64,000 nucleotides of DNA, from assembly GCA_964016885.1 (NCBI GenBank), contig OZ024741.1:52700001-52764000 (forward strand), given 5' to 3'. This document shows positions 3,158 to 62,173 of this stretch, piece by piece; positions within the stretch are counted from its first letter, which is position 1, and every line of letters begins with the position of its first letter. This DNA comes from Eledone cirrhosa (lineage: Eukaryota). A program made the translations under genes and the position numbers. The notes below the pieces were generated by a model. That model ran no database searches, was not told the DNA's origin, and saw only the letters and a list, made by a program, of their open reading frames with translations.

Positions 3158-3450
3158 CGTTTCTGAATTTGTTTAGCAAGATTCTTTATCTGAAATCGTG
3201 TGTTGAAACCGATATTGTTATACTTTGGGAGGGTCATGTTGCCAATAAGAAACACACGCACCAGTTGCTTTCACTTCAATTTAATTTAATATATATTTAT
3301 AAATTTACAAATTTATAAATTTCTGGTTGGTTGGTTGGTTCCACAACCAGATAGTTGTTTATATATATATAGTCATAGTTCTTTCGTCACACACTCTGTG
3401 ACCTCTTCAGTGACTGGGGATTTCTTTCTTCGTTTCTGTGCCTTTCCTTT
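3157..3450 (+). repeat. Dispersed repeat with degenerate HHR (family also at 1703 and 20801)
   Basis: Shared TTATACTTTGGGAGGG..AAACACACGCAC..CACTTCAATTTA. Core is CTGAAAT here versus CTGAAGA at 20834. Confidence 0.65.
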
Positions 3451-3712: not shown

Positions 3713-4387
3713 TTAATTGTAAGTTGTGATGTTGCTGTTCCACTCATATTTTCTATTTAATTTTGGTTTTAATTCTTTTATGCTTACTGCCTCTGTAATT
3801 TGCCTAAACATTGCGTCTTTCTTGTGTGTGGATTCTATTTTTATTTCTATGCTCTCTAATTTACCCCTGTGTTCTATCTTAGCATGTTGGTAGAGCACAG
3901 ATGATTCTTTACTATCTTGGAGGTCTCGCCAGTGTTCATTTATTCGTTCCCCTATACTACGAGCTGTCTCACCTATGTACACTATATTTTTGTTTCTACA
4001 TTGTCCTTCAGTACATCTTATGCTATATACTACATTTCTAGTTTTACAGTTAATATGGGGGCTTATTTTACAGGTTATACATTTCTTATCTATACATGAG
4101 GGTCTTTGGAACAGGTATGTCTTGCTAATAAGTGTTTTTACGGAGGTACCAGGTCTTTCTACTATCTTAATATTGAGATTATGTTTCTTTAGGGCCCTTC
4201 TAAATTTGTAGGCTAGTTCGCCTCTAGGGGTTGTATTGATGAACATTACACTCTGGTATTTATTGCTATCATACCATGAGTTTATTCTATTGGCCTTGTT
4301 CTTAGTTCTTTCTATTCTATTCCAAAATTTGCTCCTATACAAGGGGCAGGTCCCATTTATGTCATTATTTACCATTTTTTTTCCCAT
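3713..4387 (-). CDS. PLE (Neptune-type) C-terminal linker plus GIY-YIG endonuclease; frameshifted continuation of 4369-6411
   Basis: CIDKKCITC..CKTRNVVYSIRC..C..YIGETARSIGERINEH..H..H..RQITEA..I..LN. The shift falls at a T8 homopolymer (~4375-4382). Confidence 0.85.
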   Translation of the reverse strand: MGKKMVNNDINGTCPLYRSKFWNRIERTKNKANRINSWYDSNKYQSVMFINTTPRGELAYKFRRALKKHNLNIKIVERPGTSVKTLISKTYLFQRPSCIDKKCITCKISPHINCKTRNVVYSIRCTEGQCRNKNIVYIGETARSIGERINEHWRDLQDSKESSVLYQHAKIEHRGKLESIEIKIESTHKKDAMFRQITEAVSIKELKPKLNRKYEWNSNITTYN

Positions 4388-6411
4388 TTGGTTCTGGCTC
4401 CTTTATACACTCTGATTCTATCTCTCTGATTGTAGCCAGAGAACTGCATACGGTGGATGAAGTGTTGTATGTGTCTCTCTAGTTCTTCGGGGTTGCACAT
4501 GCGGGACACATTTCTCATCACCCGTACCAAATCCGCAATCAGTATGTTGATTTTGGTATGGTCCGAAATGGCCGAGTTTCGGTGGATCAGATGTTTGGAA
4601 GTCATGGGTTTGGCATAATGGGAATGGAGGATTTGTTTTTGGTTGTTAATAGTATCTAACCAGAGCTCTGTGTCTAGTACAGGTAATCGATGGTTGGGGT
4701 ATCTACTTGGGTAGTCTATAGTAACTCTAATGCTCTGGTGGATGGAGTTTGCTATTTGCTGGATGCTTTCCATTGTGTTTTTCTCTGGTTCCTGACTGTT
4801 CTTTAGTGGGGGTGTCTTAACTACGATGTTTATATCATCTACGTAGCGGGAGTACATTATCAGGGTTAAGCTGTCTTCTAATTGTTCATTAAGTTTTTGT
4901 TTAAGTCTACTGTCCCACCATACCATGAACAAGTTAGCTATGTCGCCTGCAATGCTAACACCAATGGCTGCTCCTTCCTCTTGGGCATATGTTTTACCAT
5001 TAAATTTGAACATATGTTCCTTAAGGGTTAATTTTATGCTGGCCCCTACCGCATGTGCAATCATTTTCTTCAGTTCATCGTGGTTTTCGGGTGTCCGTAT
5101 GGCTCTGGTCCACCCGTTCCATCTATCTGTGTGGGTTTTCTTGGCCATTGAGGTAATGGTAGGTGGTCTGCCTCTTGCTGGTCTTGTAGGGCACAGGTTG
5201 CTAAGGTCATAAGTGTCTAGGTAACTATTACTATGGGTAAGCTTAAGTAGAAGTCCCAGCTCACTGGTATCAATCCCACGGAACTCAACCTTGCTCTCGC
5301 TGATCATTTCGACGCATTTCTCCACAGCAAAATCCACGTCAATAGATGGATACAGGGACACAACATCCATACTGCCTATTATGCAGTTTGTTAGGTCCCC
5401 AGATCGGTTACCCGCGCCGATTCTGCTGAGGAGGTCCTCCGTGCTGTCACACACATCTGGGGACATCTCAATGATGGGGCGTATGATCAGGGAGAGGAAG
5501 TAGGACAGTCTGTAGTTACTAGCAATGTTAGCCCCACAGACTGGCCGTGTTGGTGGTCCCGCGACAGGGTCCCAGCCCGTTTTATGGTCTTTTCGAAGCC
5601 CATACAACGCCGGCACGTCATTGTTCCAGGCCTGGAAGTTGTTGGCAGTCCTTTTGTTGGGCTGCATTATATTTGTCCACATCACCATATGGGCATTGAG
5701 GGTTTTTTCTCTATCCTCATGCTCCTGTGGTGTTACCTCTCTTGTGTTAGTGATGTGGGGTTGCATTGCCTGGATGTAGTTTGGCAGGCTGTCAACCGAC
5801 ATTCTGCCAGACTTGTCTGTTGGAAAGCATGCTATCTCTCCATTACGCGAGCGCTGTATGAGCTTACGCAAGCCATTTGCAGATTCTTCTCCCAGTTGCT
5901 GGGCCTCTATTCTATTATGCTTCTTGCTATACTGTTCTATAATATTTCTAAGTTCGGATTTAGCTATACTAAATTGTGCTTCTGTTTGTTCATCGACCTG
6001 CGACGGCAACTGCGTGCGTTTGTTAAATGGCAAAGTCGTGGCGTGGACTCGTCGTAGGTCGAATGATTTATCGGAGGGGTTATAAAACGGAGAGTTCCAG
6101 GCTGCTGCTTTATGTCTACTAGTGCTATTGTTAGTTGTGTTGTTTCTATTTCCACCAACAGCAGCAGCCTCAGCTTCATGGTTGTTTCTATGTCTCTCAT
6201 AATTACTCCTGTCTCTTTCCACTGGCTCAATGTTGTTATCTACCCTATTTTGTGTGTCTGTGTGTTCGTCTTGGTTATTCTCTTTGTCCTTAGCCTCCCT
6301 TCTCCTTTTAATCCTATTACTTTCTCTTATTTCTCTGATTTCTGTGCTACTGTCATTACTTGTTTTCTGTGTCTGTGTGTTTGTTAAGATTGTAGTGGTG
6401 GTGAGAGGCAT
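4369..6411 (-). CDS. PLE (Neptune-type) reverse transcriptase
   Basis: PTDKSG, LYGLRKDHK, TRPV, SMDVVSLYPSI, QEEGAAIG, RYVDD, LPVLD and HYAKP motifs. The frame extends upstream into a Thr-rich repeat. Confidence 0.92.
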   Translation of the reverse strand: MPLTTTTILTNTQTQKTSNDSSTEIREIRESNRIKRRREAKDKENNQDEHTDTQNRVDNNIEPVERDRSNYERHRNNHEAEAAAVGGNRNNTTNNSTSRHKAAAWNSPFYNPSDKSFDLRRVHATTLPFNKRTQLPSQVDEQTEAQFSIAKSELRNIIEQYSKKHNRIEAQQLGEESANGLRKLIQRSRNGEIACFPTDKSGRMSVDSLPNYIQAMQPHITNTREVTPQEHEDREKTLNAHMVMWTNIMQPNKRTANNFQAWNNDVPALYGLRKDHKTGWDPVAGPPTRPVCGANIASNYRLSYFLSLIIRPIIEMSPDVCDSTEDLLSRIGAGNRSGDLTNCIIGSMDVVSLYPSIDVDFAVEKCVEMISESKVEFRGIDTSELGLLLKLTHSNSYLDTYDLSNLCPTRPARGRPPTITSMAKKTHTDRWNGWTRAIRTPENHDELKKMIAHAVGASIKLTLKEHMFKFNGKTYAQEEGAAIGVSIAGDIANLFMVWWDSRLKQKLNEQLEDSLTLIMYSRYVDDINIVVKTPPLKNSQEPEKNTMESIQQIANSIHQSIRVTIDYPSRYPNHRLPVLDTELWLDTINNQKQILHSHYAKPMTSKHLIHRNSAISDHTKINILIADLVRVMRNVSRMCNPEELERHIQHFIHRMQFSGYNQRDRIRVYKGARTKWEKKW

Positions 6412-6497
6412 TGAATGTGTGTGTGTTGTTGTTGTTGATGTGTGTTGTTGTCTCCGTGTGTGTGTGTGTTATCGTTGTTGTGTGTGTTGTTATTGTT

Positions 6498-6983: not shown

Positions 6984-7557
6984 CTGAATACCTATGTATC
7001 GCTGCTTGCGTAATCATGTAATGTTAGCAAGTATTCGATAGCAAATGTATAATCATTTGTCACTTCTTCAGAGATTTTGGATAAATTGGATAAAATCAGA
7101 AAAATTGAAGTATTTATATTAGTAATAGAGGAAGAAAAAGAGGGGATAGTATATGACAGATGGTAAATCAATTTACTGCTAAACAAGTATATAATGGGTT
7201 TCTAATGAGAATACCATGAGTAAATGGTTCATTTTATCTAAATATGAATTTTTGGGAGTGCCAATTTTAATCTCTACTTGACCAATTGGACAGTGGTCAG
7301 GGCTGGTCATTTGGTATAGTAGTATTAATTATAAAGTGTCAATTGGGGAAGGGGGAGATTTCGATTGCTACTGAATAACATCAATCTTAGTAGTCAGCTG
7401 GTATATGCACTAGGGAATTGAATCAAGAAATCAGAAATCTCATTTTATCTATAGCAGTTTATATTAAAAGGTAAATAATAGAAGAGTTGATAGAATTAAG
7501 ACTAATAAAGAATGTTAATATCTATTTTGACAATCAAACGGGGATAGAGACAGGCGT

Positions 7558-9875
7558 TCAATCCTGGTAGTATTTATAATATGAAAATGTAGATTTTAAG
7601 CGATGGTTACAGTATAACGATCGCTCTATTCTGTTATTTAATAAAATGTTTTTGGATTTCATAATACAAAATAATTCTACATTACATAATTTACAATATT
7701 CCTGTCCATGGGATATGGGGGGGCAGCCGCTATTATATCCCATTTTAGGTGAAATTGTTGGTTATTTTCACGCAGCTGCCAAGCCTTGTCTGCGAGTGTT
7801 GTTACATAACGCTGGTTTTCATGTTTTATCGAGTAACGATGTCTATAAAGGCGTGATTTGAAGGAGGTGGCTGTAGATCCCACATAGTACCACTTCTGTC
7901 TATCCGATTCGATAGTACATTTGTATACGATGTTGCGTTCAAGACACTGATTGTTCAACGGACACATTCCTGGTTGGACACAGTTGCAATTATAATTTTG
8001 CGTTGTTGTATTGTCATGGATGGGTTGATGAGGTTGCTTATGTAGGACAGGATGTTGTTTTTTGTTTTGTGATGTTATAGCTAATGTTTTACGTGTATTG
8101 TTATGTGTTGGAATGCGTTTATACAACCGTTTTGCGTTAAGCTTTTTTATATGTTGTTCAATATTAGGGGCGGTTGAATATGAAAGTCGAATAGTGTTAG
8201 GGTTTAAGATTTTATTATATTTATGTGATGTTGGAAAGTGTTTTTTAACTAATCGAAAGAATTTTGAGGTTAGATTGGTTTTAATAGAGTTGTTATAGAC
8301 CGGGTTGTACCAAATATACTCCTTACATCGCCTTCTTTTTGGTGGTGTGCGACTATTATTGTGTCTATTGCGGTAGTGTATGTATGGTGGTGATTCTGTG
8401 CTATTTCTACTCCTATGGGATTTATTTTGGGTGTTTTGGTGATCTTCGACTATATACTCTATATTATCTAGGTGACCGGCTTTCCTAAGTGCATCATCAT
8501 AATATTCGGCATGTTCTTTGAAGGTTTGTTGGTTGGACGACAGGCGGGAGATTCTAAGAGAGACATTTCTAGGGATGGATTTAATTATAGAGAGTGGATG
8601 GTTGGAACTCGTATTTACATATTTAAGGTTCTCATTTAGTTTATGGAACGGTTTAATCGTATCTGTATTGAGATTGAAAGTAACATCAAGGAAATTGACC
8701 TCTTTGAGGTTATATTCAAATGTAATATTTAATCCTAGTTCCTTAAAAAGCTTTCTGATATTTTTACGCATCCTTTCTAAATTCTGGTTATTCATATGCT
8801 TAACTAATAGGAGCGCATCGTCACGGTAGATTCCACCGTGGAGATCCTTGAATTTTCCTTGTAATCTGTGGGTGATATAAATTCCCACAAGATCTGTTAC
8901 TTCCGCCGAATCATTAGAACCCATAGTGATATCAAAATTAGAAGGTCTATCTTTGCGAACCCAGTAGCTATCATCGAATTTAACTATAGTTTTCCTCGCT
9001 TCCATAATAATTTTAATTTCAGCATCCGTAAGGTCGGAATTATCCTTAGCGAACGAAAGAGCTTCATGTAGAGTATCAGGTGAAATTGAGGAATAATATT
9101 CATCAATATCAAACTGAATAAATTTTGATTTTTTCTTATCAGTAATGTTATTAAACCATCTTATTGCTTGATGAGTGTTACCCCATAGTTTAATTTCTAC
9201 TTTAACCTTAACTTGGGGGATAATTCTGTCTAGTATATATTTGCTAATTTTGCCTATATCAGATTTAGAGGGGCATATAAGTCTAATATTAGGGTTAGTA
9301 TCGAAGTTTACCTTGTGGTCCTTCAGGTTGAAGGATGGTATAGCTGGTGTTAAGGGTTGCGTTCTATCGTCAATACAAAGTTTTTTAACAATTTCACATG
9401 CCGCGTTGTTGATGTTTTTAAGTGTAGCTTCATTAGTTTTCCTGTATTTTTTATGCAATTCCTTACGGATGAAGTTATTGTAAGTGTCCACATCCATGGT
9501 ATATACGTTTGATGTTTTGTCTGCTCTAACAATAATTCCATTGGCGTTTTTTAGATTATTGAGCAGTGCCGTGATGTCATTCTGTAGTTTATTGTTCTTC
9601 CGTTTTGTAAATTTGATCTCCATGATCATATCCATTAGGTCTTGTTCAAATGCATCCAAAAGTGGGTTTGAGGGTGGGTTCTTGTAAGATTTAAATCCAA
9701 ATTTATCCTTGTTAAGATCCGTTGTTTGGTTTATACGGCTTTTGTCAAAATGGAATGTTTTCCATCTGATTCGTCGAATAAAATCATTGGTCCTTCGTAT
9801 CATACCTAGAATATATTCCCTTTTTGCCTGAATAGGTATGTTTTTTAACGACATATCGAATTGGTGCCTTTCCAT
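7558..9875 (-). CDS. Naiad-type PLE RT plus GIY-YIG protein (one frameshift near 7720)
   Basis: SLKNIP, ADKT, LKDHK, QFDIDEYYSSI, FDITMGS, IYRDD, FLDV, SNHP, CNC..CPL..C, IVY..YVG. The C-terminus CKLCNVE..LN.R.E..CNH is in the 7558-7743 frame, after a G7 run. Confidence 0.92.
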
Positions 9876-10075
9876 TTTAGAGGCGTATGCTGAATTAGTT
9901 GCTCAACTGTATAGGAGATTAATAAAATTTCAGGTTATCAATAATGTAGTGATAATATATCGCTACGTTAGAGATGAACAGCGTACGTGCAGGTTTGCTC
10001 AACGAGTATAAATTATATTCCGGAGAAAATGTAGAAAGGATGAATATAAAATGAAAAAGGAATTTATTAGGTATT

Positions 10076-10859: not shown

Positions 10860-11277
10860 AAATAACAAGAGGCTGGACTGGTGTAAATCCTTGAAAAGTT
10901 TATTATACTATGATCATTTCAATGAACGGGTTTCGTATGAATCTGGTGATATCATCAGGTATTCGAAATATAACAAAGGAATATATAAAATCCTTGGGTC
11001 CGAAAAACAAAGACAAAGAGGACGACTGACCATCTAGCTGCTTTCACATCGGTCAGTCGCCCTCAAGGCGCCCACTTGAGGGCGACTGACCGAGGTGAAA
11101 GCAGCTAGTTGGTCAGTCGTCCTCTTTGTCTCTGATTTTTCGGACCCATGGATTTTATATATTCCTTTGTTATATTTCGAATACCTGATGATATCACCGG
11201 ATTCATAGGGAAACCGGTCATTGAAATGATCATAGTATAATAAACTTTTCAAGGATTTACACCAGTCCAGCCTCTTG

Positions 11278-11359: not shown

Positions 11360-12637
<1,278 letters not shown>

Positions 12638-12640
<3 letters not shown>

Positions 12641-12905
12641 GTTGACAAATATATCAATGTGCCCAGACACGCAAATATATTGCCCTTGGTATGACATGAG
12701 GGCGACCGATCTAAATGTTCGGTCGCCCTTATGTCTCTGATTTTCAGCCCCATGGATTTTGTCTTTTATATTCCTTCCTTTGTTATATTTCAAATACCTG
12801 ATGATGTCACCGGATTCATACTGAACCCGGTCATTGAAATGATCATAGTATAATAAACCTTTCAAGGAAATACACCCTCCTGTTATTACAGCCTCCTGTT
12901 ATTTT
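12638..12905 (+). mobile_element. Second copy of the 10860-11283 family with type I HHR
   Basis: CTGATGA 12798-12804 and GAAA-TGATCA-TA 12836-12847. Colinear with 11120-11283. Confidence 0.8.
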
Positions 12906-13107
12906 ATAATAATTAACTCCGTACTCACACCACCAACTACACAAACGAAGACGGGTGAGTTGCATTACATTGAGTGCTCTCCATAATATTACATCGAGGT
13001 TGACCATACGGAATGACCAGTTCTATCCAGTGGCAAACCAACAAACCTAACTAAATATATATATATATATCCATGGAAAATGCCGTTGTTTCTTTTGATA
13101 TACTGGT

Positions 13108-13176
13108 GGTGAATAGTCCAGTCTTATAAAGCAACCGAAATTATAATGATCCCAAGAAAGGTAGCCGATGAGCGGT
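13108..13176 (+). ncRNA. Divergent copy of the reverse-order hammerhead/K-turn motif (core U4C)
   Basis: GG-T-GA-ATAG-TC-CAGTCTT-ATAAAGC-AACC-GAAA-TTAT-AAT-GA-T-CC..AAGGTAG-CCGATGA-GCGGT, in an island between (TA)n tracts. Confidence 0.55.
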
Positions 13177-14137
13177 AATTGTCCATGTACTTGTTATTTC
13201 CACGTTTTCTGTTACCTATATACCTCTCGTGTTTTTTAAATTAATTATATATATATATATGATTGTTATTCAAAGTTTAATCAATTAGTAGCTTGGGCCG
13301 CGTTTGTAATACTTCAATAAGTCAATAACGCATTTGTTGTCGCATGCATCTTGCTAGTTGTAATATAGGATCACCTCGGCAGTACATGACGGAATATGTG
13401 TATAGTAAAAACGAATTTGTAGATTAGTTTTCCAGAATACACTTTATTTGGAAATATGCTGTTATACGAATTTCTGCGGTGCCAGTCTTTATTACGTAAT
13501 GATATAGTTACGTATTTATTGAAACGACTTCTTCAGACAGCATTTTTTTAGCTTACACAATTTGGTGATAAGATGGTCCTATTTTCGTACTTGCTTTTTC
13601 AAAGTTCCGACTCCATATGGTACAGGAATCCATAATTTTCTCTACGTGTTGGCAGGCGTCGTTTAGATGTGGGGGTTTATTCAACTGCACATTATTTCAT
13701 TGCTCCTGAAGACTGATTCTCAACTTGATTAATGAGATTCGTGACAGACATCATCTCACCAATATACTATTCTATTCTTCCCTGGACACTTGTGGCAACA
13801 GATTACAATGTTGATGTGACATTCATGAAGCTGTATTCAGCTAATAAATCAGTTCTATCTTCTAGAGATGGTTCCCCGGTGATCCCTTATCATATTTACG
13901 GTCTCGTTTGTTTCCAGTTATTACTATTGTTTTAGTTCAGTGAAAATATGATTGAGTGAGCGTCTATTAAGTTAATTCTCAAATGGATACATGATAAATA
14001 TATTATAGTATGAAGTGTGAGTGGCAGTATGAGTGGCAGTGTGAGTGGCAGTGTGAGTGTATGTTGGTATGCGCGCGCGGATGTGTACGTCTACTTCCTC
14101 GTTATTATATTTTATATTGTCATATGGTTATATTAAC

Positions 14138-20988: not shown

Positions 20989-21900
<912 letters not shown>

Positions 21901-56925: not shown

Positions 56926-58413
56926 ATGGCCGAAGCTTCTTCACCAAAATTCGAAGGAGGAAAGGGGAAGATGAACTTACAGCTTCCCCCTGCCACTGTC
57001 ACAGTAGCAGAGGTCAAGAAGATAGGTCAGCCAGAGGAAGAATTCTCTCCACCTGTTAACCGACAACTTGACGTTGCCATGGCAACAACCCAAAGAACCA
57101 GCAGCAACAGCAACAACAACAACAATGCGACGGACGAAAGCAACACCAATAACAATAACAATAACAACAACAAGACCAATAACGGTGACAACAACAACAA
57201 TGATAACAACAACACCACCAACGACAACAACAACACAAACAAACAAAATTTCTCCTTCGCCGAGACGACAAGGAAAACCCTCGACTATCTGCCAGTAGAT
57301 ATAACAAAAGCGAAGGAGCTACTGGCGGATGCGAAAAAATATATAGTGTACGGGGAAAATGGTTCATTCACAATCCATTCCCCCCCGGAACTAAAAAGCC
57401 AGAGACTCCTAAACACGGTCATGTTTAGGACAATCTCGAACAAAAGTAAAAAACCAGCTCAACCATCACAGAGCGAAATAGAGCTGGTTTTAAAAGACGT
57501 CATGAAGGACATCACCTTCATTCAGAAGGATAGACTCTACGGGAGTCTATCCATTCTCATGAAGGACAGGGACACAGCAGTGAAACTGTCCATCAAACCA
57601 ATCACATCCAGCGCATACACCTTCTACCCTACGTACATGGGTAGAAGAACACAAAAAATAAAAATCCACACCATCCTGCCGATTATGGACATATGGTGGG
57701 TTTTGACAGGTTTTCTGGACCTGGAGGATGACATGCTGGTGTCCATGGGAAAGGCATCGGGTGACGCGTTCAGTGGAACGAGCCTCGAACTTGTAGTTCA
57801 AATGAGGCCCGAAAGGATCGCCCAGATCCCTGAACGCGTCATACTAGATGATCTAACCTTCATCAACATTACCGTTGAGGGTAGACGGCCCTCGTGTTAC
57901 CTCTGCAGAACCAGAGGTCACCTGAGGGCTGTCTGTCCCCAACTTAATAAGAAAACCCCAATCCTGCCTACACCACCAACAACTGCACAACCAACACAAT
58001 CACCACAACTACCACTACAAAAACAACCACCACAGCTCAAACCAAAACAAAACAATGTCCAACCCATCCCCTCCACTCAAAAAACAAAAACAATTTCCAA
58101 AACACCCGTACCGCAAACACAACCCGAAAATATACCCCTCCCCTCCAACGCGGAAGATGACCCTAGTTCGTCGTCAGACGAGGAGGAGCACTTCCACACA
58201 ATCAAAAGAAAAAAGAAAACACACCTCAGACACACAAATGAAAAAAACCCCTCCCCAAAACATAACACTGACACCAACACAAAAGAGCTCACAACAGCAA
58301 ACAAAAAACACCACACAAAAACAAAAACATGCATACACATACATAAATACAAGAAACAAAAAACTGTTAAACATTGTGTACAACAACAATCTAATAAAAA
58401 CACAAGGGCCTAA
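56926..58413 (+). CDS. Tx1 ORF1 with CCHC zinc knuckle (probably continues in the 58055-58711 frame)
   Basis: CYLCRTRGHLRAVC, with Asn-rich and Pro/Gln-rich low-complexity regions. Homologous to the ORF at 62790. Confidence 0.85.
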   Translation: MAEASSPKFEGGKGKMNLQLPPATVTVAEVKKIGQPEEEFSPPVNRQLDVAMATTQRTSSNSNNNNNATDESNTNNNNNNNNKTNNGDNNNNDNNNTTNDNNNTNKQNFSFAETTRKTLDYLPVDITKAKELLADAKKYIVYGENGSFTIHSPPELKSQRLLNTVMFRTISNKSKKPAQPSQSEIELVLKDVMKDITFIQKDRLYGSLSILMKDRDTAVKLSIKPITSSAYTFYPTYMGRRTQKIKIHTILPIMDIWWVLTGFLDLEDDMLVSMGKASGDAFSGTSLELVVQMRPERIAQIPERVILDDLTFINITVEGRRPSCYLCRTRGHLRAVCPQLNKKTPILPTPPTTAQPTQSPQLPLQKQPPQLKPKQNNVQPIPSTQKTKTISKTPVPQTQPENIPLPSNAEDDPSSSSDEEEHFHTIKRKKKTHLRHTNEKNPSPKHNTDTNTKELTTANKKHHTKTKTCIHIHKYKKQKTVKHCVQQQSNKNTRA

Positions 58414-58735
58414 CTTCACCCAGGCAGGGGATTTCCCCCACCTCAAAATGATTAAGGCCCCACAGGACACCTATAAAACTTTAAAAAACAATTTTAAAGA
58501 GGACGTGGGTCCCCCCTGCGTCGGGCCCATTAACCGCGTCCTCCTAAAAAACTATCCCACCCCCTCCCCAAACACCCTCACAACTCCAAGCTCCCCAACC
58601 ACACAACACACTGATGCCCCCACACTTCCACAAACCACCACCCCACCCAACAACCCATCCCCCACCCTAATGGAAATTGTGCAGCCCGATACCCGGGACG
58701 CAGAGAGGTAAGTGCCTTTTCTCTTCACCACCAAC

Positions 58736-61700
58736 ATGGCTATGCTAAGAGTAGGCTGTTTAAATGCGCGTGGCCTGGGCTCAACTTGGAAGCAAGCAAT
58801 GCTTCTAAATGACCTCAGGTCACAACGTATAGATGTGATGGTTATTTGCGAGGCCCGGATCAGCAACGTGCGACAGCTGGCCCCCACCTTTGATGACTTT
58901 GAGATGCACGCATCTCTCTGTCAGCCCGGAGGTGGGGGTGGAGTTGTCGTTCTGCTGCAAAAACATCTGGGTCTCGCAACACAGATGGTACATTTGGACC
59001 CGGAGGGTCGACTAGTGGTTCTGGACCTTGGCAGTGGTAAAGGCGGAGCGTTTAGGTTGGTAGCCGCCTACGGCCCTTTCGGGTCAATGCGGCCGGACTT
59101 CTTCCATCGTCTGGAGACTTTTCTAGGGACGTCCCGCTCCTTGCTATTAGTGGGGGACTGGAATGGTATCCTAGATGCACGCTGGGACTACGTAGGGGCC
59201 TGCCCCGATAGAGAGGGGTGTAATAGCCTCAAAGGGTTAATCGGTCGATTTGACCTGGCCGATAGATATCGACTAGATTTTCCGACTGCGCCAACCTGGA
59301 CTTGGGCAAATCGTAGCGGATCATCTAGGTCGTACCTAGATAGGTTCTTAGTTAGAATTAAGGATAAGGACTTTTTAAGTTGTCCAAAAATGCGCATTGT
59401 TGGCTATTCAGACCACAAATTAGTGACCTGCATGGTCAACCTTGACAGAACTCATAAACAGGGCCCCGGTTACTGGAAGCTCAACTTGTCCTTGCCGGCA
59501 AGTAGAGTCTACAGGAATCGGATTAGTACGTTAGTTAAGGAACGGTTGACTGGAGCGATCGTCAACAGCAGGTGGTGGGTATCTCTAAAGAGAGAGATTA
59601 GAGTAGTCTCGATAGAATTTAGTAAGGTTCTAGCTGCGGATAGGAATAGGAAGGAAAGGGAGCTAATAGATAGAGTAGAAGAGGCAATTAGAAGCGGCGA
59701 CGTGGCCAGAGTGCTAGCGTCGAGAACGGCTTTGAGCCAGTTTTTCGACGCGAAGCACGAAGGCTGCGTTGTCCGAAGTAAAATACGTGCTCTAGGGAAC
59801 GAGGGGACCAAAGCTGTTAGCTGGGCCCGCGTGACAGAGGCCAACAGTGGAACTAAATCCACCATCCGGTCTTTGCGAGACCTGGATGGACGGGCGATTC
59901 TTGAGCCTAAGCAGATATGTGAGGCCTTTCAAAGGCACTTTGCCCGACTGTTCGGGAGGGGCGGGGAGCCGGTTGGGAACGTGGACTTCGGTCCATACCT
60001 CGACGGCCTGCCGCGCCTCTCGGACAGTGAGGCGAAGTCCTGCGAGGAGCCGATTTCGGCCGCTGAGATAGAGGACGTGCTGAGCCAATGCGGCAAACGC
60101 AAATCCCCGGGTCTCGATGGTCTTCCTTACGAATTATATCTAGCTATGCCGGACTTGTTCCCCGATCTCCTCGAGGCGGTCTACTGCAACTGGCAACAGA
60201 ACGGGAGAATTCCCTGTACTGTGACCAAGGGCGTAGTCACGCTAGTGAGGAAGGACGAGAAAAAGGGGGACGAAATAAGTAACTTCAGGCCCATAACACT
60301 GCTAAATACAGAGTTACAGATTTTGGCCAAGGTGCTAGCAAAGAGGTTGGCGCTTGTCGTGGGCAACCTGGTGGGAGATGCGCAGACATGCGCTATCCCG
60401 TCCAGGTCCATCCATGACAACCTCCACCTCATGCGATACATCATAGAGAGGGTTGGGAACGAACCCGGCTTTGGTGGGGCTCTGATCAACTTGGATCAAT
60501 CTAAGGCGTTCGATAGGGTCGACCATGGTTACCTGGATGCGGTGCTAGCGGCGGCAGGCTTCGGACCCGTTTTCAGGGGCTGGATCACTGCTATGCACAG
60601 CAGCCGCATCTGCTCTAGGGTCAAGGTGAACGGCTACCTCTCGGAGCCGTTCAAAATCGCGCGGTCCATCCGACAAGGGTGCCCTCTCTCCTCCCTTCTG
60701 TATGTGTTGACTCTCGAGCCACTACTGCGGAAGTTGGAGTTGTTGCAGGGCATCCCTTTGGAACCGGGATTGCGGAAAGCGGTGTCGGCCTACGCCGATG
60801 ACGTGACAGTAATGGTGTCGACGGCCTCCGAAATCGAGGCGGTCGGCACCTTACTGGAGGAGTACGAAAAGTTCACAGGGGCTAAGCTGAACCGGGACAA
60901 GTCGATCGGTTTGCAACTCGGCACGTGGAGGGGCAGACCGATGCCCTCCGATAGCGTCGTCGGACGCTGGACGGAGGGCCCGGTGAAGTTGCTCGGGGTC
61001 TGGTTCGGACCGGACCTCCAGGTGGAGAAAAACTGGGCGGAGGTTACGAACAGGGTGTTTGCACTGACCCAGAAGTGGGCCAGTTGCAAACTATCCCTGA
61101 AAGGTCGGGCGGAGGTGGCGAACACCTACATAGCGTCCGTCATCTACTACCGCCTGACCGTAGTGCCCTGCCCAAGGGAAACCCTCACCAAGATGGAGCG
61201 CGCGCTCTTCCAATTCCTTTGGAAGAGGCGGGCTCCTATGGTGAGGAGATCCATCTGCTGTCAACACCCTTCGAAAGGAGGGCTGGGGATGCCGTGGCTA
61301 ATGATGCGTAAACACGCATTAAGGCTACGGCACCTCTACGTATTCCTCACCGGACAACCGGTGTGGGCCTCGTTTGTGAGACGAACCTTTCCCAAACTCG
61401 TCTCACTCACCGAGCTGCAATCCTGGGTCAAGCAAAGACCGAGAAAACTGGGCGCCTGGCACACTGAGTGTGCCCAGGCGCTCACCGCCCTCTGGCAGGC
61501 GGATCCGGTTATCAGTGGAGACTCCACCGCAACATTCTATAGAGGGCTGGTACGCAGCAGGTGCGACGACGCCCTCGGAGAAGCCCTAGACATGGAGGAG
61601 GACGAACTGGCCAGCCTGTTCGGTAGGACATTCAGCCCGGGACCTATGGACAACTTCCAGAAGTCCCTGGCCTGGCAGTGCTACCGAGGGGCTTTACCCG

Positions 61701-62173
61701 TTCGAGAAAGGCTCTACAGACACGGGCGCCCGGGTAGGGACCCCGCCAAAAAGATCTGTCCCAGATGCGTGTGCGACGAGGAAACCGTTGCACACGCATT
61801 AGTACACTGCTCGGGCGTAGCCGATCTGTGGGGCTATGTCGAACAACTGCTGTCAAGGGTGGGACCGATCCGGTTGACCACCGAGTCGATTGTAATGATC
61901 AAGCCGCCTCCCCCCTTCAAAGATGAAGCAGAGGCGGTGTTTCTGTGCGTAATAGCCATGGCGAAAGAGGTTGTATGGTGGACGCGTCTGAAAGGACTGA
62001 GGTCGGGCACCTTTCTCTCTGGCCAACAACTGGTCCGTTTCTTCCGATATCATTTCGGAAGAAGGATCAGGATGGAGAGAGAGGTGCTGCACCCCAGCCG
62101 TTTCTATGAAAGATGGGTGAAAGTGGCGAGAATGGCCCGTGTGAATGGGCCTTCACTCTACATCAGACTATAG
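58736..62173 (+). CDS. Tx1/L1 ORF2: APE endonuclease, RT and C-terminal Cys motif; intact
   Basis: LNARGL, GDWN, SYLDRF, SDH, WKLN, KSPGLDG, FRPITLLN, DQSKAFDRVDH, RQGCPLS, YADD, CPRC..ETVAHALVHC. Confidence 0.96.
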   Translation: MAMLRVGCLNARGLGSTWKQAMLLNDLRSQRIDVMVICEARISNVRQLAPTFDDFEMHASLCQPGGGGGVVVLLQKHLGLATQMVHLDPEGRLVVLDLGSGKGGAFRLVAAYGPFGSMRPDFFHRLETFLGTSRSLLLVGDWNGILDARWDYVGACPDREGCNSLKGLIGRFDLADRYRLDFPTAPTWTWANRSGSSRSYLDRFLVRIKDKDFLSCPKMRIVGYSDHKLVTCMVNLDRTHKQGPGYWKLNLSLPASRVYRNRISTLVKERLTGAIVNSRWWVSLKREIRVVSIEFSKVLAADRNRKERELIDRVEEAIRSGDVARVLASRTALSQFFDAKHEGCVVRSKIRALGNEGTKAVSWARVTEANSGTKSTIRSLRDLDGRAILEPKQICEAFQRHFARLFGRGGEPVGNVDFGPYLDGLPRLSDSEAKSCEEPISAAEIEDVLSQCGKRKSPGLDGLPYELYLAMPDLFPDLLEAVYCNWQQNGRIPCTVTKGVVTLVRKDEKKGDEISNFRPITLLNTELQILAKVLAKRLALVVGNLVGDAQTCAIPSRSIHDNLHLMRYIIERVGNEPGFGGALINLDQSKAFDRVDHGYLDAVLAAAGFGPVFRGWITAMHSSRICSRVKVNGYLSEPFKIARSIRQGCPLSSLLYVLTLEPLLRKLELLQGIPLEPGLRKAVSAYADDVTVMVSTASEIEAVGTLLEEYEKFTGAKLNRDKSIGLQLGTWRGRPMPSDSVVGRWTEGPVKLLGVWFGPDLQVEKNWAEVTNRVFALTQKWASCKLSLKGRAEVANTYIASVIYYRLTVVPCPRETLTKMERALFQFLWKRRAPMVRRSICCQHPSKGGLGMPWLMMRKHALRLRHLYVFLTGQPVWASFVRRTFPKLVSLTELQSWVKQRPRKLGAWHTECAQALTALWQADPVISGDSTATFYRGLVRSRCDDALGEALDMEEDELASLFGRTFSPGPMDNFQKSLAWQCYRGALPVRERLYRHGRPGRDPAKKICPRCVCDEETVAHALVHCSGVADLWGYVEQLLSRVGPIRLTTESIVMIKPPPPFKDEAEAVFLCVIAMAKEVVWWTRLKGLRSGTFLSGQQLVRFFRYHFGRRIRMEREVLHPSRFYERWVKVARMARVNGPSLYIRL

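What the first reader, a model, noticed from the sequence alone, without database searches (positions are those of the whole stretch)
13108..13176. Third, independently diverged sequence type with the same reverse-order hammerhead/K-turn layout
Seen: the flanks show no evident similarity to the other copies, but the layout is the same: T-GA-ATAG-TC-CAGTCTT-ATAAAGC-AACC-GAAA-TTAT-AAT-GA-T..AAGGTAG-CCGATGA-G. Stem III changes on both sides (ATAG/TTAT), the first stem I pair becomes C-G, the first stem II pair becomes G-C, and the triplet is GUC. The linker TAA(A/T)GC and GTCTT are conserved across all types. This copy has U4C and one stem I mismatch, so it may be decayed. Inference: structure-level conservation argues for selection on the fold, and the linker may replace the usual loop I-loop II tertiary contact.
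Basis: partly seen in the sequence, partly recalled or inferred. Interest (0 to 1): 0.8.

Follow-up and report, generated by a model that had tools for sequence, protein, structure and literature searches.

The report
Rewired hammerhead ribozyme in animal retroelements
This is a worn copy from a group of jumping repeats (about 17,000 motif matches in this animal genome) whose hammerhead-ribozyme parts lie in reversed order and are predicted to be held together by a kinked arm; it is likely the self-cleaving RNA that was reported missing from Naiad retroelements.

Summary
The layout is real. Hammerhead blocks lie in the non-circular order S-G-C, so far published only from metatranscriptomes (Eckert 2023). 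A short pattern finds 16,983 matches in this genome against 0 for the reversed control. Helices I, III and a K-turn-capped extension covary across families. The far ends of helices I, II and the kinked arm would form a second three-way junction, a closed cage outside the six published permutations. The carriers are non-coding, roughly 630-nt, Penelope-type units at (TA)n. By eye, 16 of 54 published Naiad consensus sequences, described as lacking hammerheads, carry this or the C-S-G order in their 3' region; two octopus Naiads have the same K-turn form. This copy is decayed, and C4 is probably the family's original letter. Cleavage, expression and the mobilising element in this genome are untested or not found. 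New variant of a known kind.

The parts
13072..13246 (+). 5'-truncated copy of the family 3 non-coding Penelope-type repeat, flanked by (TA)n on both sides
   Evidence: aligns with a longer copy at 80.7%
13097..13101 (+). upstream 5' strand of helix II (pairs with 13131-13135; 3 of 5 pairs left in this copy)
   Evidence: 23-28 of 30 copies pair per position
13103..13109 (+). 5' strand of the helix beyond the K-turn (NC helix), one bulged U at 13107
   Evidence: 23-26 of 30 per pair with 13151-13156; covariation across families
13110..13112 (+). K-turn non-bulged strand (3n, 2n, 1n = U, G, A)
   Evidence: sequence; census
13113..13118 (+). block S: stem III strand and GUC triplet; predicted cut between 13118 and 13119
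   Evidence: cut site inferred by analogy with PMC10085705
13119..13125 (+). stem I strand after the cut site (pairs with 13158-13164; 6 of 7 pairs here)
13126..13130 (+). single-stranded linker from the far end of helix I to the far end of helix II
   Evidence: sequence; helix assignment
13131..13144 (+). block G: helix II 3' strand (13131-13136), GAAA (13137-13140), stem III strand (13141-13144)
13145..13157 (+). K-turn 3-nt bulge (13145-13147), G-A-U (1b, 2b, 3b), NC helix 3' strand (13151-13156) and one junction base
13158..13172 (+). block C: stem I strand (13158-13164), core CCGAUGA (13165-13171, C at position 4), G10.1 (13172) pairing with C11.1 (13136)
12480..12551 (+). intact-looking copy of the same motif, family 1
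12106..12200 (-). inverted family 1 copy with a 4-nt insertion after GAAA (5' inversion partner of the 12480 copy)
   Evidence: (I15)
11541..11630 (-). further family 1 copy with a changed last core base
21354..21425 (+). intact-looking copy, family 2 (first of a 420-nt identical tandem)
21774..21845 (+). second family 2 copy of the tandem

Best explanation
This is a decayed genomic copy of a non-coding Penelope-type retroelement, likely derived from and moved by a Naiad element, whose end carries a hammerhead motif with its blocks in the non-circular order S-G-C that is predicted to self-cleave in intact copies. Shown by sequence and covariation: the chain runs helix II 5' strand, NC helix, K-turn, stem III, UH, stem I, linker, helix II 3' strand, GAAA, stem III, K-turn, NC helix, stem I, CUGAUGA, base 10.1. 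Inferred: the K-turn folds the stem III arm back so that its far end meets the far ends of helices I and II in a second three-way junction, which replaces the usual loop I-loop II contact. Inferred: in a transcript of a tandem pair the RNA is cut after GUH in each unit; the two ends of the released ~630-nt unit stay paired through helices I, II, III and NC and can rejoin to a circle or be copied uncut. Inferred: a Penelope-type reverse transcriptase/GIY-YIG protein nicks (TA)n DNA and starts copying at one of two internal sites about 40 nt apart downstream of the motif, which gives the partial tandems, 5' truncations and 5' inversions. This copy (helix II 4 of 6, helix I 6 of 7 pairs, C4) is probably weak or dead.
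For: 16,983 exact pattern matches against 0 reversed control; 101 against 0 for a second pattern. 16-row alignment: 87.4% of 286 cells paired, 17 of 18 pairs with a two-sided change, score 0.707 against at most 0.196 for slid partners. Upstream helix II 72.5% paired with two-sided changes at 3 of 5 pairs; downstream rival 35%, only 10.1-11.1 holding (13 of 16). Offset scan anchored on fixed motifs only: peak 3.9 of 5 Watson-Crick pairs at one upstream offset in 121 copies and 3.6 in 8, at most 1.8 and 2.5 downstream. K-turn census of 134 copies: 1b-1n G-A 116, 2b-2n A-G 83 or A-U 40. Tandem spacings mostly 620-640 nt and many inverted neighbours (overlapping loci counted more than once). 3' ends at two sites: family 2 at 15-16 nt (12 of 44) and 55-61 nt (17 of 44), family 1 at 35-36 (12 of 23) and 80-81 (6 of 23), like the 30-40-nt tail of Penelope elements (PMC11167929). 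By eye, the Octopus Naiad consensus sequences Obim and Ovul end with the same K-turn form on the coding strand and share the upstream stretch with families 1, 2, 4, 6, 11. Type-SGC RNAs with a short linker do cleave (PMC10085705). Same fold in 4 of 119 metagenome matches.
Against: No cleavage assay and no RNA data. No intact Naiad was found in this genome: one match to a Naiad reverse-transcriptase motif, 80 related matches with open frames of at most 223 aa, and no same-strand motif at E below 0.35 downstream of 30 and 21 such remnants, although families 1 and 2 are young (94-98% identity among the best full-length matches), so the present mobiliser is unidentified. The Naiad link rests on sequences read by eye, and I saw no fitting motif in the bivalve or hemichordate Naiads. 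Pair 10.1-11.1 fails in 3 of 16 rows and the fifth upstream pair in 10 of 16. The covarying rows are related, which inflates the shuffle test. In a Penelope element tested in vitro hammerhead cleavage was not needed for insertion and no reads ended at the cut site (PMC11167929); 8 of 9 Xenopus retrozyme dimers did not cleave (bioRxiv 10.64898/2026.07.22.740005). Nested folding predicts only parts of the structure.
Confidence: 0.75

Rival explanations
1. The fold is real and hammerhead-derived but is kept mainly as a binding platform for the retrotransposon protein (or a host K-turn protein); cleavage is slow or dispensable.
For: Cleavage was dispensable in vitro for a Penelope element. Family 3 seems to have spread to at least 40 sites with C4, a change that lowers activity in vitro though it still allowed viroid infection (PMC3088659). 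Genomic copies extend past the cut site, so an uncut or rejoined template was copied.
Against: Core letters C3, G5, A6, G8, A9, G12, A13, A14, A15.1 are invariant in the 16-row alignment and U16.1 nearly so (rows were picked with these motifs, so this is partly built in), and position 17 is A or C in 116 of 134 copies although it was not part of the search pattern, as expected for a working cleavage site.
Confidence: 0.15
2. The catalytic core forms only between two or three units (in trans or along a tandem), in the ordinary C-G-S order, as for the dimeric minimal hammerheads of other Penelope elements; the reverse order in one unit is incidental.
For: Units often lie in tandem; minimal Penelope hammerheads are thought to work as dimers (PMC4209133).
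Against: A tandem or a circle keeps the cyclic order S-G-C, so an ordinary order needs three units and ~600-nt loops. The NC helix, K-turn and upstream helix II covary locally within 75 nt and have the lengths needed to connect the blocks in one molecule. Single-chain SGC RNAs cleave.
Confidence: 0.06
3. The motif came from, or is now moved by, a non-Naiad Penelope clade (Neptune-type) in this genome; the resemblance to Naiad ends reflects only remote ancestry.
For: Naiad-like coding remnants here are all broken while elements with a C-terminal GIY-YIG domain are common and some are young (88-95% amino-acid identity between two copies) and also sit at (TA)n.
Against: The C-terminal-endonuclease element at window 4372-6468 has an ordinary type I minimal hammerhead near 3404 (by eye); none of the loci held had such a coding region joined upstream of a real S-G-C motif (the only anchor it listed overlaps an ORF). 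This rival concerns the present carrier and can coexist with a Naiad origin.
Confidence: 0.25
4. This particular copy at 13097-13172 is itself functional or co-opted by the host.
For: Its ten scored core letters other than position 4 are all intact.
Against: It is 12.2% away from the column majority, like the family mean of 11.1%; helix II has 4 of 6 and helix I 6 of 7 pairs; core positions are hardly better kept than others across 30 copies.
Confidence: 0.04

Closest known systems
Type-SGC hammerhead ribozymes (HRIMA-1 and variant; Eckert et al. 2023, PMC10085705)
   Same: Order S-G-C, all core letters, short linker from stem I to stem II, pseudoknotted core.
   Different: There helix II pairs wholly with bases after CUGAUGA and a helix encloses block C (structure lines); here 4-5 of its pairs come from an upstream strand and a K-turn arm reaches stem I. 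[quoted passage not shown] 'kink' and 'k-turn' occur 0 times in its supplement.
Type-CSG hammerhead ribozymes (two metagenomic sequences, same paper)
   Same: Same cyclic order; their linker before helix II reads UUAAU or UUAAA, as in several families and Naiads here.
   Different: Opened at another place; six nematode-group Naiad consensus sequences fit C-S-G by eye, which suggests, untested, that the orphan CSG sequences come from animal Naiads.
Naiad Penelope-like elements (Craig et al. 2021, PMC8557442)
   Same: (TA)n targets, partial tandems, 5' inversions, 30-40-nt tail; Obim and Ovul end in the same K-turn motif and upstream stretch.
   Different: The units here code for nothing; the paper reports no canonical hammerhead in Naiads and only 'half cores' in eight.
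Animal non-LTR retrozymes (PMC7229834; bioRxiv 10.64898/2026.07.22.740005)
   Same: Non-coding hammerhead-bearing units in monomers and tandems, proposed Penelope derivatives, unit length within the reported 51-972 bp.
   Different: Defined by type I hammerheads and found with type I descriptors, which cannot see this motif; circular RNA not shown here.
Standard K-turns (box C/D, Kt-7; PMC6779385)
   Same: 3-nt bulge followed by G-A and A-G pairs between two helices; often U-U at 3b-3n and U at L3 (62 and 88 of 134).
   Different: A-U instead of A-G at 2b-2n in 40 of 134 copies; placed inside a ribozyme; protein binding untested.

Membership tests
Hammerhead ribozyme | core CUGANGA, GAAA and UH | tested here: met
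   Intact in families 1, 2, 4, 5, 6, 8, 9, 11, 12; this copy has C at position 4; position 17 is A or C in 116 of 134
Hammerhead ribozyme | three helices around the core, supported by covariation | tested here: met
   helix II is nicked after 10.1
Hammerhead ribozyme | site-specific self-cleavage after UH | not testable with these tools
   no assay; no RNA run listed
Hammerhead types I-III (circular permutations) | cyclic block order C-G-S | tested here: not met
   order is S-G-C
Type-SGC hammerhead (Eckert 2023) | 5'-3' order S, G, C | tested here: met
Type-SGC hammerhead (Eckert 2023) | uninterrupted block C: CUGANGA followed directly by the whole 5' strand of helix II | tested here: not met
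   only pair 10.1-11.1 is downstream; the rest is upstream
Type-SGC hammerhead (Eckert 2023) | helix enclosing block C that joins stems I and II | tested here: not met
   stem I is reached directly (0-1 nt) from the NC helix; no such helix seen in the alignments
K-turn | 3-nt bulge, 1b-1n G-A, 2b-2n A-G, helices on both sides | tested here: met
   116 and 83 of 134 (40 more with A-U); NC helix covaries at 6 of 6 pairs
K-turn | kinked geometry and L7Ae/15.5K binding | not testable with these tools
   needs FRET, binding or structure
Penelope-like element insertion products | partial tandems, 5' truncation, inverted 5' copies, two 3' ends 30-40 nt apart, microsatellite targets | tested here: met
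Naiad (autonomous) | ORF with N-terminal GIY-YIG, CxC, DKA and reverse transcriptase | tested here: not met
   units hold no such ORF; only broken remnants elsewhere
Non-autonomous Naiad derivative | 3' end shared with an autonomous Naiad | tested here: inconclusive
   clear by eye with published Octopus Naiads; no physical link found in this genome
Non-LTR retrozyme | type I hammerhead in each unit | tested here: not met
   motif is S-G-C
Non-LTR retrozyme | expressed as circular RNA | not testable with these tools
   no RNA holder listed

The most novel reading that the evidence does not exclude
Naiad retroelements of at least six animal phyla do carry hammerheads, but only in non-circularly permuted form, which is why they were reported as lacking them. 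The cephalopod-type form is an active, covalently closed cage (two three-way junctions joined by helix I, a nicked helix II and a K-turn arm), a topology outside the six permutations thought possible, amplified to tens of thousands of chromosomal copies through circular RNA and possibly switched on by a host K-turn-binding protein.
Probability: 0.55. Interest if true: 0.9.

Novelty: new variant of a known kind. Interest (0 to 1): 0.8.

Why it matters
Non-circular permutations of an RNA were first reported in 2023 and only from environmental RNA or DNA of unknown hosts. This puts them in animal chromosomes in thousands of copies and gives them a host and a job. It breaks the assumption that CUGANGA must be followed by the whole helix II strand, so the list of six possible hammerhead permutations is incomplete. 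It offers a direct answer to an open remark in the Penelope field, that Naiads proliferate without hammerheads, and implies that hammerhead surveys with type I-III descriptors miss a large class. An 80-nt natural construct with a K-turn inside a ribozyme is immediately testable and could be a protein-switchable ribozyme scaffold.

Tried and rejected
Downstream helix II (in register, or shifted by two bases): rejected. A downstream GGA-N3-4-TCC hairpin stacking on a one-pair helix II: seen in some families by eye, not tested, no longer needed. Rfam: nothing. RNA evidence: no RNA holder listed among 5 runs; contigs of three runs of unknown kind were laid and show only that the repeat is present, including a few pieces in a second organism; no statement on expression follows. 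Search for a Naiad protein through the GIY-YIG piece in L062 returned only C-terminal-endonuclease proteins (23 hits; best 150 of 4952); a decayed Naiad-like piece found no protein relative. No link between Naiad-like remnants and the motif. A family 3 exact pattern gave only 4 matches, too few to count position 4 genome-wide. The octopus 'Twin' SINE (recalled) was looked for in the literature without a relevant hit, so identity with it is untested. A triangle estimate with recalled helix lengths and kink angles put the arm ends 26-33 A apart: compatible with a junction but not a test. In one search, 11 of 23 representatives were not parsed because the spacing limits were too tight or the copies decayed. 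For alignments A1 and A2 I used 16 rows: 13 of the 20 cluster representatives, plus L011, L003 and the window copy in place of the two family 3 representatives; five representatives whose 5' part looked replaced by microsatellite, an inversion or unrelated DNA were left out. Earlier findings of the scan: none returned.

Full report
The observation. The window lies in a 3.0-Gb genome rich in (TA)n. It is probably a cephalopod mollusc: the only named animal hits of a local Penelope protein are from Argonauta and an oyster, and reverse-transcriptase remnants resemble the published Octopus Naiads by eye; this is an inference. The copy spans about 13072-13246 between (TA)n runs and belongs to an old dispersed family ('family 3'; 170 candidates, 40 scored) with a sharp 3' end and ragged 5' ends. 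Five more copies of the same motif, of two younger families, lie in the window.

Block order. Eckert et al. (PMC10085705; main text read through the discussion; supplement passages) divide the hammerhead into blocks C (CUGANGA), G (GAAA) and S (cut site). Types I-III share the cyclic order C-G-S; the order here is S-G-C, their non-circular type SGC, which cleaves at 0.007-0.19 per minute and was found only in metatranscriptomes. In 590 kb of unbiased sample a strict descriptor found 3 SGC and no other order, against 0 in shuffles. A pattern of linker, GAAA and CTGATGA has 16,983 exact matches in the genome and 0 when read backwards; 33 of 48 such matches in the loci fetched have both stem III of at least 3 and stem I of at least 4 pairs, against 4 of 119 in metagenomes and 0 of 31 in viral contigs. 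About a dozen families turned up.

Pairing. In a 16-row alignment of natural copies, helices I and III, the helix beyond the K-turn and pair 10.1-11.1 give 87.4% paired cells, two-sided changes at 17 of 18 pairs and a score of 0.707 against at most 0.196 when partners are slid. The rows are related, so the shuffle control overstates significance; the slide control and the number of pair types carry the weight. Helix II was the weak point: only one pair forms with the bases after CUGAUGA. Reading published Naiad ends showed why. The five or six bases before GAAA pair with a strand upstream of the whole motif. Tested on this genome, the upstream helix has 72.5% paired cells and two-sided changes at 3 of 5 pairs against 35% for the downstream rival; an offset scan anchored on fixed motifs peaks at one upstream offset (3.9 of 5 pairs, 121 copies); in family 3 the five pairs hold in 23-28 of 30 copies. 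Where the upstream strand cannot pair with position 11.1, the base after CUGAUGA does (A-U, G-C, G-U); in family 12 and, by eye, in several Naiads the upstream strand supplies that pair too. So the chain is opened between 10.1 and 10.2 or between A9 and 10.1, inside what Eckert et al. treated as an unbreakable block; their own SGC alignments have helix II wholly downstream.

The cage (inferred). The linker runs from the far end of helix I to the far end of helix II; the upstream strand leaves helix II at its far end and enters the NC helix after one base; the NC helix runs into helix I after 0-1 base. The three far ends therefore form a second three-way junction. The stem III arm points away from helices I and II in the known hammerhead fold (PMC4209133, part 1 read), so it must turn back; the K-turn would do so. 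Among 134 copies the 1b-1n pair is G-A in 116 and the 2b-2n pair A-G in 83 or A-U in 40 (nomenclature and 15.5K binding from passages of PMC6779385). Non-cephalopod examples have a large bulge or a long junction at the same place. No three-dimensional test was possible.

This copy. It keeps 4 of 4 stem III, 6 of 7 stem I and 4 of 6 helix II pairs and is 12.2% from the column majority (family mean 11.1%). Core positions are hardly better kept than others (93.3% against 91.2%), so copies decay neutrally and selection acted on source elements. Positions 4-5 read TG 13, CG 7, CA 7 of 30, like other CpG sites and unlike TG controls, so C4 is probably original in this family or in a large part of it (the 30 copies were picked by likeness to a C4 copy). 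U4C lowers activity in vitro but still allowed viroid infection (passage of PMC3088659).

The carrier. Units hold no coding region, recur at spacings of mostly 620-640 nt, often have an inverted neighbour at the 5' side and end in (TA)n at two sites about 40-45 nt apart. These are the marks of Penelope-like elements: partial tandems, 5' inversions and a 30-40-nt tail (PMC8557442 section 6), the tail being the distance between two internal start sites of reverse transcription (PMC11167929). Animal non-LTR retrozymes are such non-coding units but are defined and searched by type I hammerheads (passages of PMC7229834; bioRxiv 10.64898/2026.07.22.740005, parts 1-3 of 5, its supplements not seen).

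The Naiad link. Craig et al. (PMC8557442; passages) report that Naiads target (TA)n, lack canonical hammerheads and in eight cases have a 'half core' with the other half 35-50 nt away on either side. I read their consensus file by eye around four core strings (CTGATGA places 1-56 of 62; the other three places 4-21; hits split by line ends are invisible). Of 54 Naiads, 10 show S-G-C with an upstream helix II strand (Bfor, with weak helix I; Amil, Aacu, Anas; one Clytia element; Movir-2; Plae; one arthropod element; Obim; Ovul) and 6 in the nematode part show clean C-S-G (one Pristionchus element, Nbra-1, -2, -3 and two more); two are doubtful; for the remaining 36, including all bivalves and hemichordates, I saw nothing that fits. 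Some names are taken from file order. In the four records read in full at the 3' end (Movir-2, Plae, Obim, Ovul) the motif lies on the coding strand after the stop codon. Obim and Ovul have the K-turn form and an upstream stretch much like that of families 1, 2, 4, 6 and 11. Against this: in the present genome I found only broken Naiad-like remnants and no motif attached to them, though families 1 and 2 are young; the present mobiliser is unknown.

Mechanism. Most likely (0.75) an intact unit self-cleaves after GUH; since both products stay paired, unit-length RNA can rejoin or circularise, and a Penelope-type protein copies uncut or rejoined RNA into (TA)n from internal start sites. That genomic copies run through the cut site shows that such a template was used. 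Cleavage, circles and protein binding are all inferred. Hammerhead cleavage was not needed for insertion by a Penelope protein in vitro, and 8 of 9 Xenopus retrozyme dimers did not cleave, so a mainly structural role stays open.

Novelty. Ten literature searches were run. 'Non-circular permutation' with 'hammerhead' gave 8 papers, 6 listed, of which I read only Eckert 2023 and saw the others as listings; Naiad with hammerhead and 'permut' gave 4, 3 listed; type-SGC, type-CSG, permuted hammerhead and Penelope-like, two of four since 2023, gave only Eckert; Naiad with ribozyme since 2022 gave 2. None of what I saw reports permuted hammerheads in animal genomes or Naiads, or a K-turn in a natural hammerhead; subscription papers are not in the library and the Hammann 2012 review was not held. 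Verdict: new variant of a known kind, interest 0.8.

Noticed in passing
window 12798-12851 (+), 11185-11238 (+), 10905-10958 (-): A separate repeat family with an ordinary type I minimal hammerhead (long helix II, palindromic stem III), in inverted arrangement at (TA)n; typical Penelope terminal repeat.
   Followed up: partly
window 4372-6468 (-) and about 3380-3420 (-): 699-aa Penelope-type frame (weak RVT_1) followed by a GIY-YIG-like stretch and, by eye, a type I minimal hammerhead near 3404.
   Followed up: partly
window 7680-9902 (-) with repeats near 7065 and 10178: 741-aa open frame similar to other Penelope pieces, no Pfam match, flanked by direct repeats that hold a CUGAAGA core whose partners I did not identify.
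   Followed up: partly
window 26300-54400: 28-kb array of a 27-nt unit with higher-order repeats and extreme strand skew; minus-strand frames read as Thr-rich or Asn-rich repeats but are broken into pieces of at most 1387 aa. Satellite or a mucin-like exon with frameshifts; undecided.
   Followed up: partly
window 56926-62170 (+): Apparently intact LINE: 495-aa ORF without Pfam match and 1153-aa ORF with endonuclease, RVT_1 and zf-RVT.
   Followed up: partly
upstream of helix II in families 1, 2, 4, 6, 11 (e.g. window 12458-12478): A conserved hairpin directly 5' of the upstream helix II strand, also in the Octopus Naiad ends, and a conserved TGCT/TGTT just before that strand in several phyla; could stack near A9/10.1 or bind the protein.
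   Followed up: no
L288, L323, L367, L402 (metagenome contigs): Four copies of the same fold without K-turn but with an asymmetric loop in the stem III arm; hosts unknown.
   Followed up: partly
PMC10085705 supplement, type-CSG alignment: The two orphan metagenomic CSG hammerheads share layout with nematode Naiad ends and the UUAAU-type linker with other Naiads; they may be Naiad ends.
   Followed up: no
L232-L261, L268, L272-L285: Further families (11, 12) and scattered old copies whose core resembles the Octopus Naiad end more closely than families 1-3 do.
   Followed up: partly
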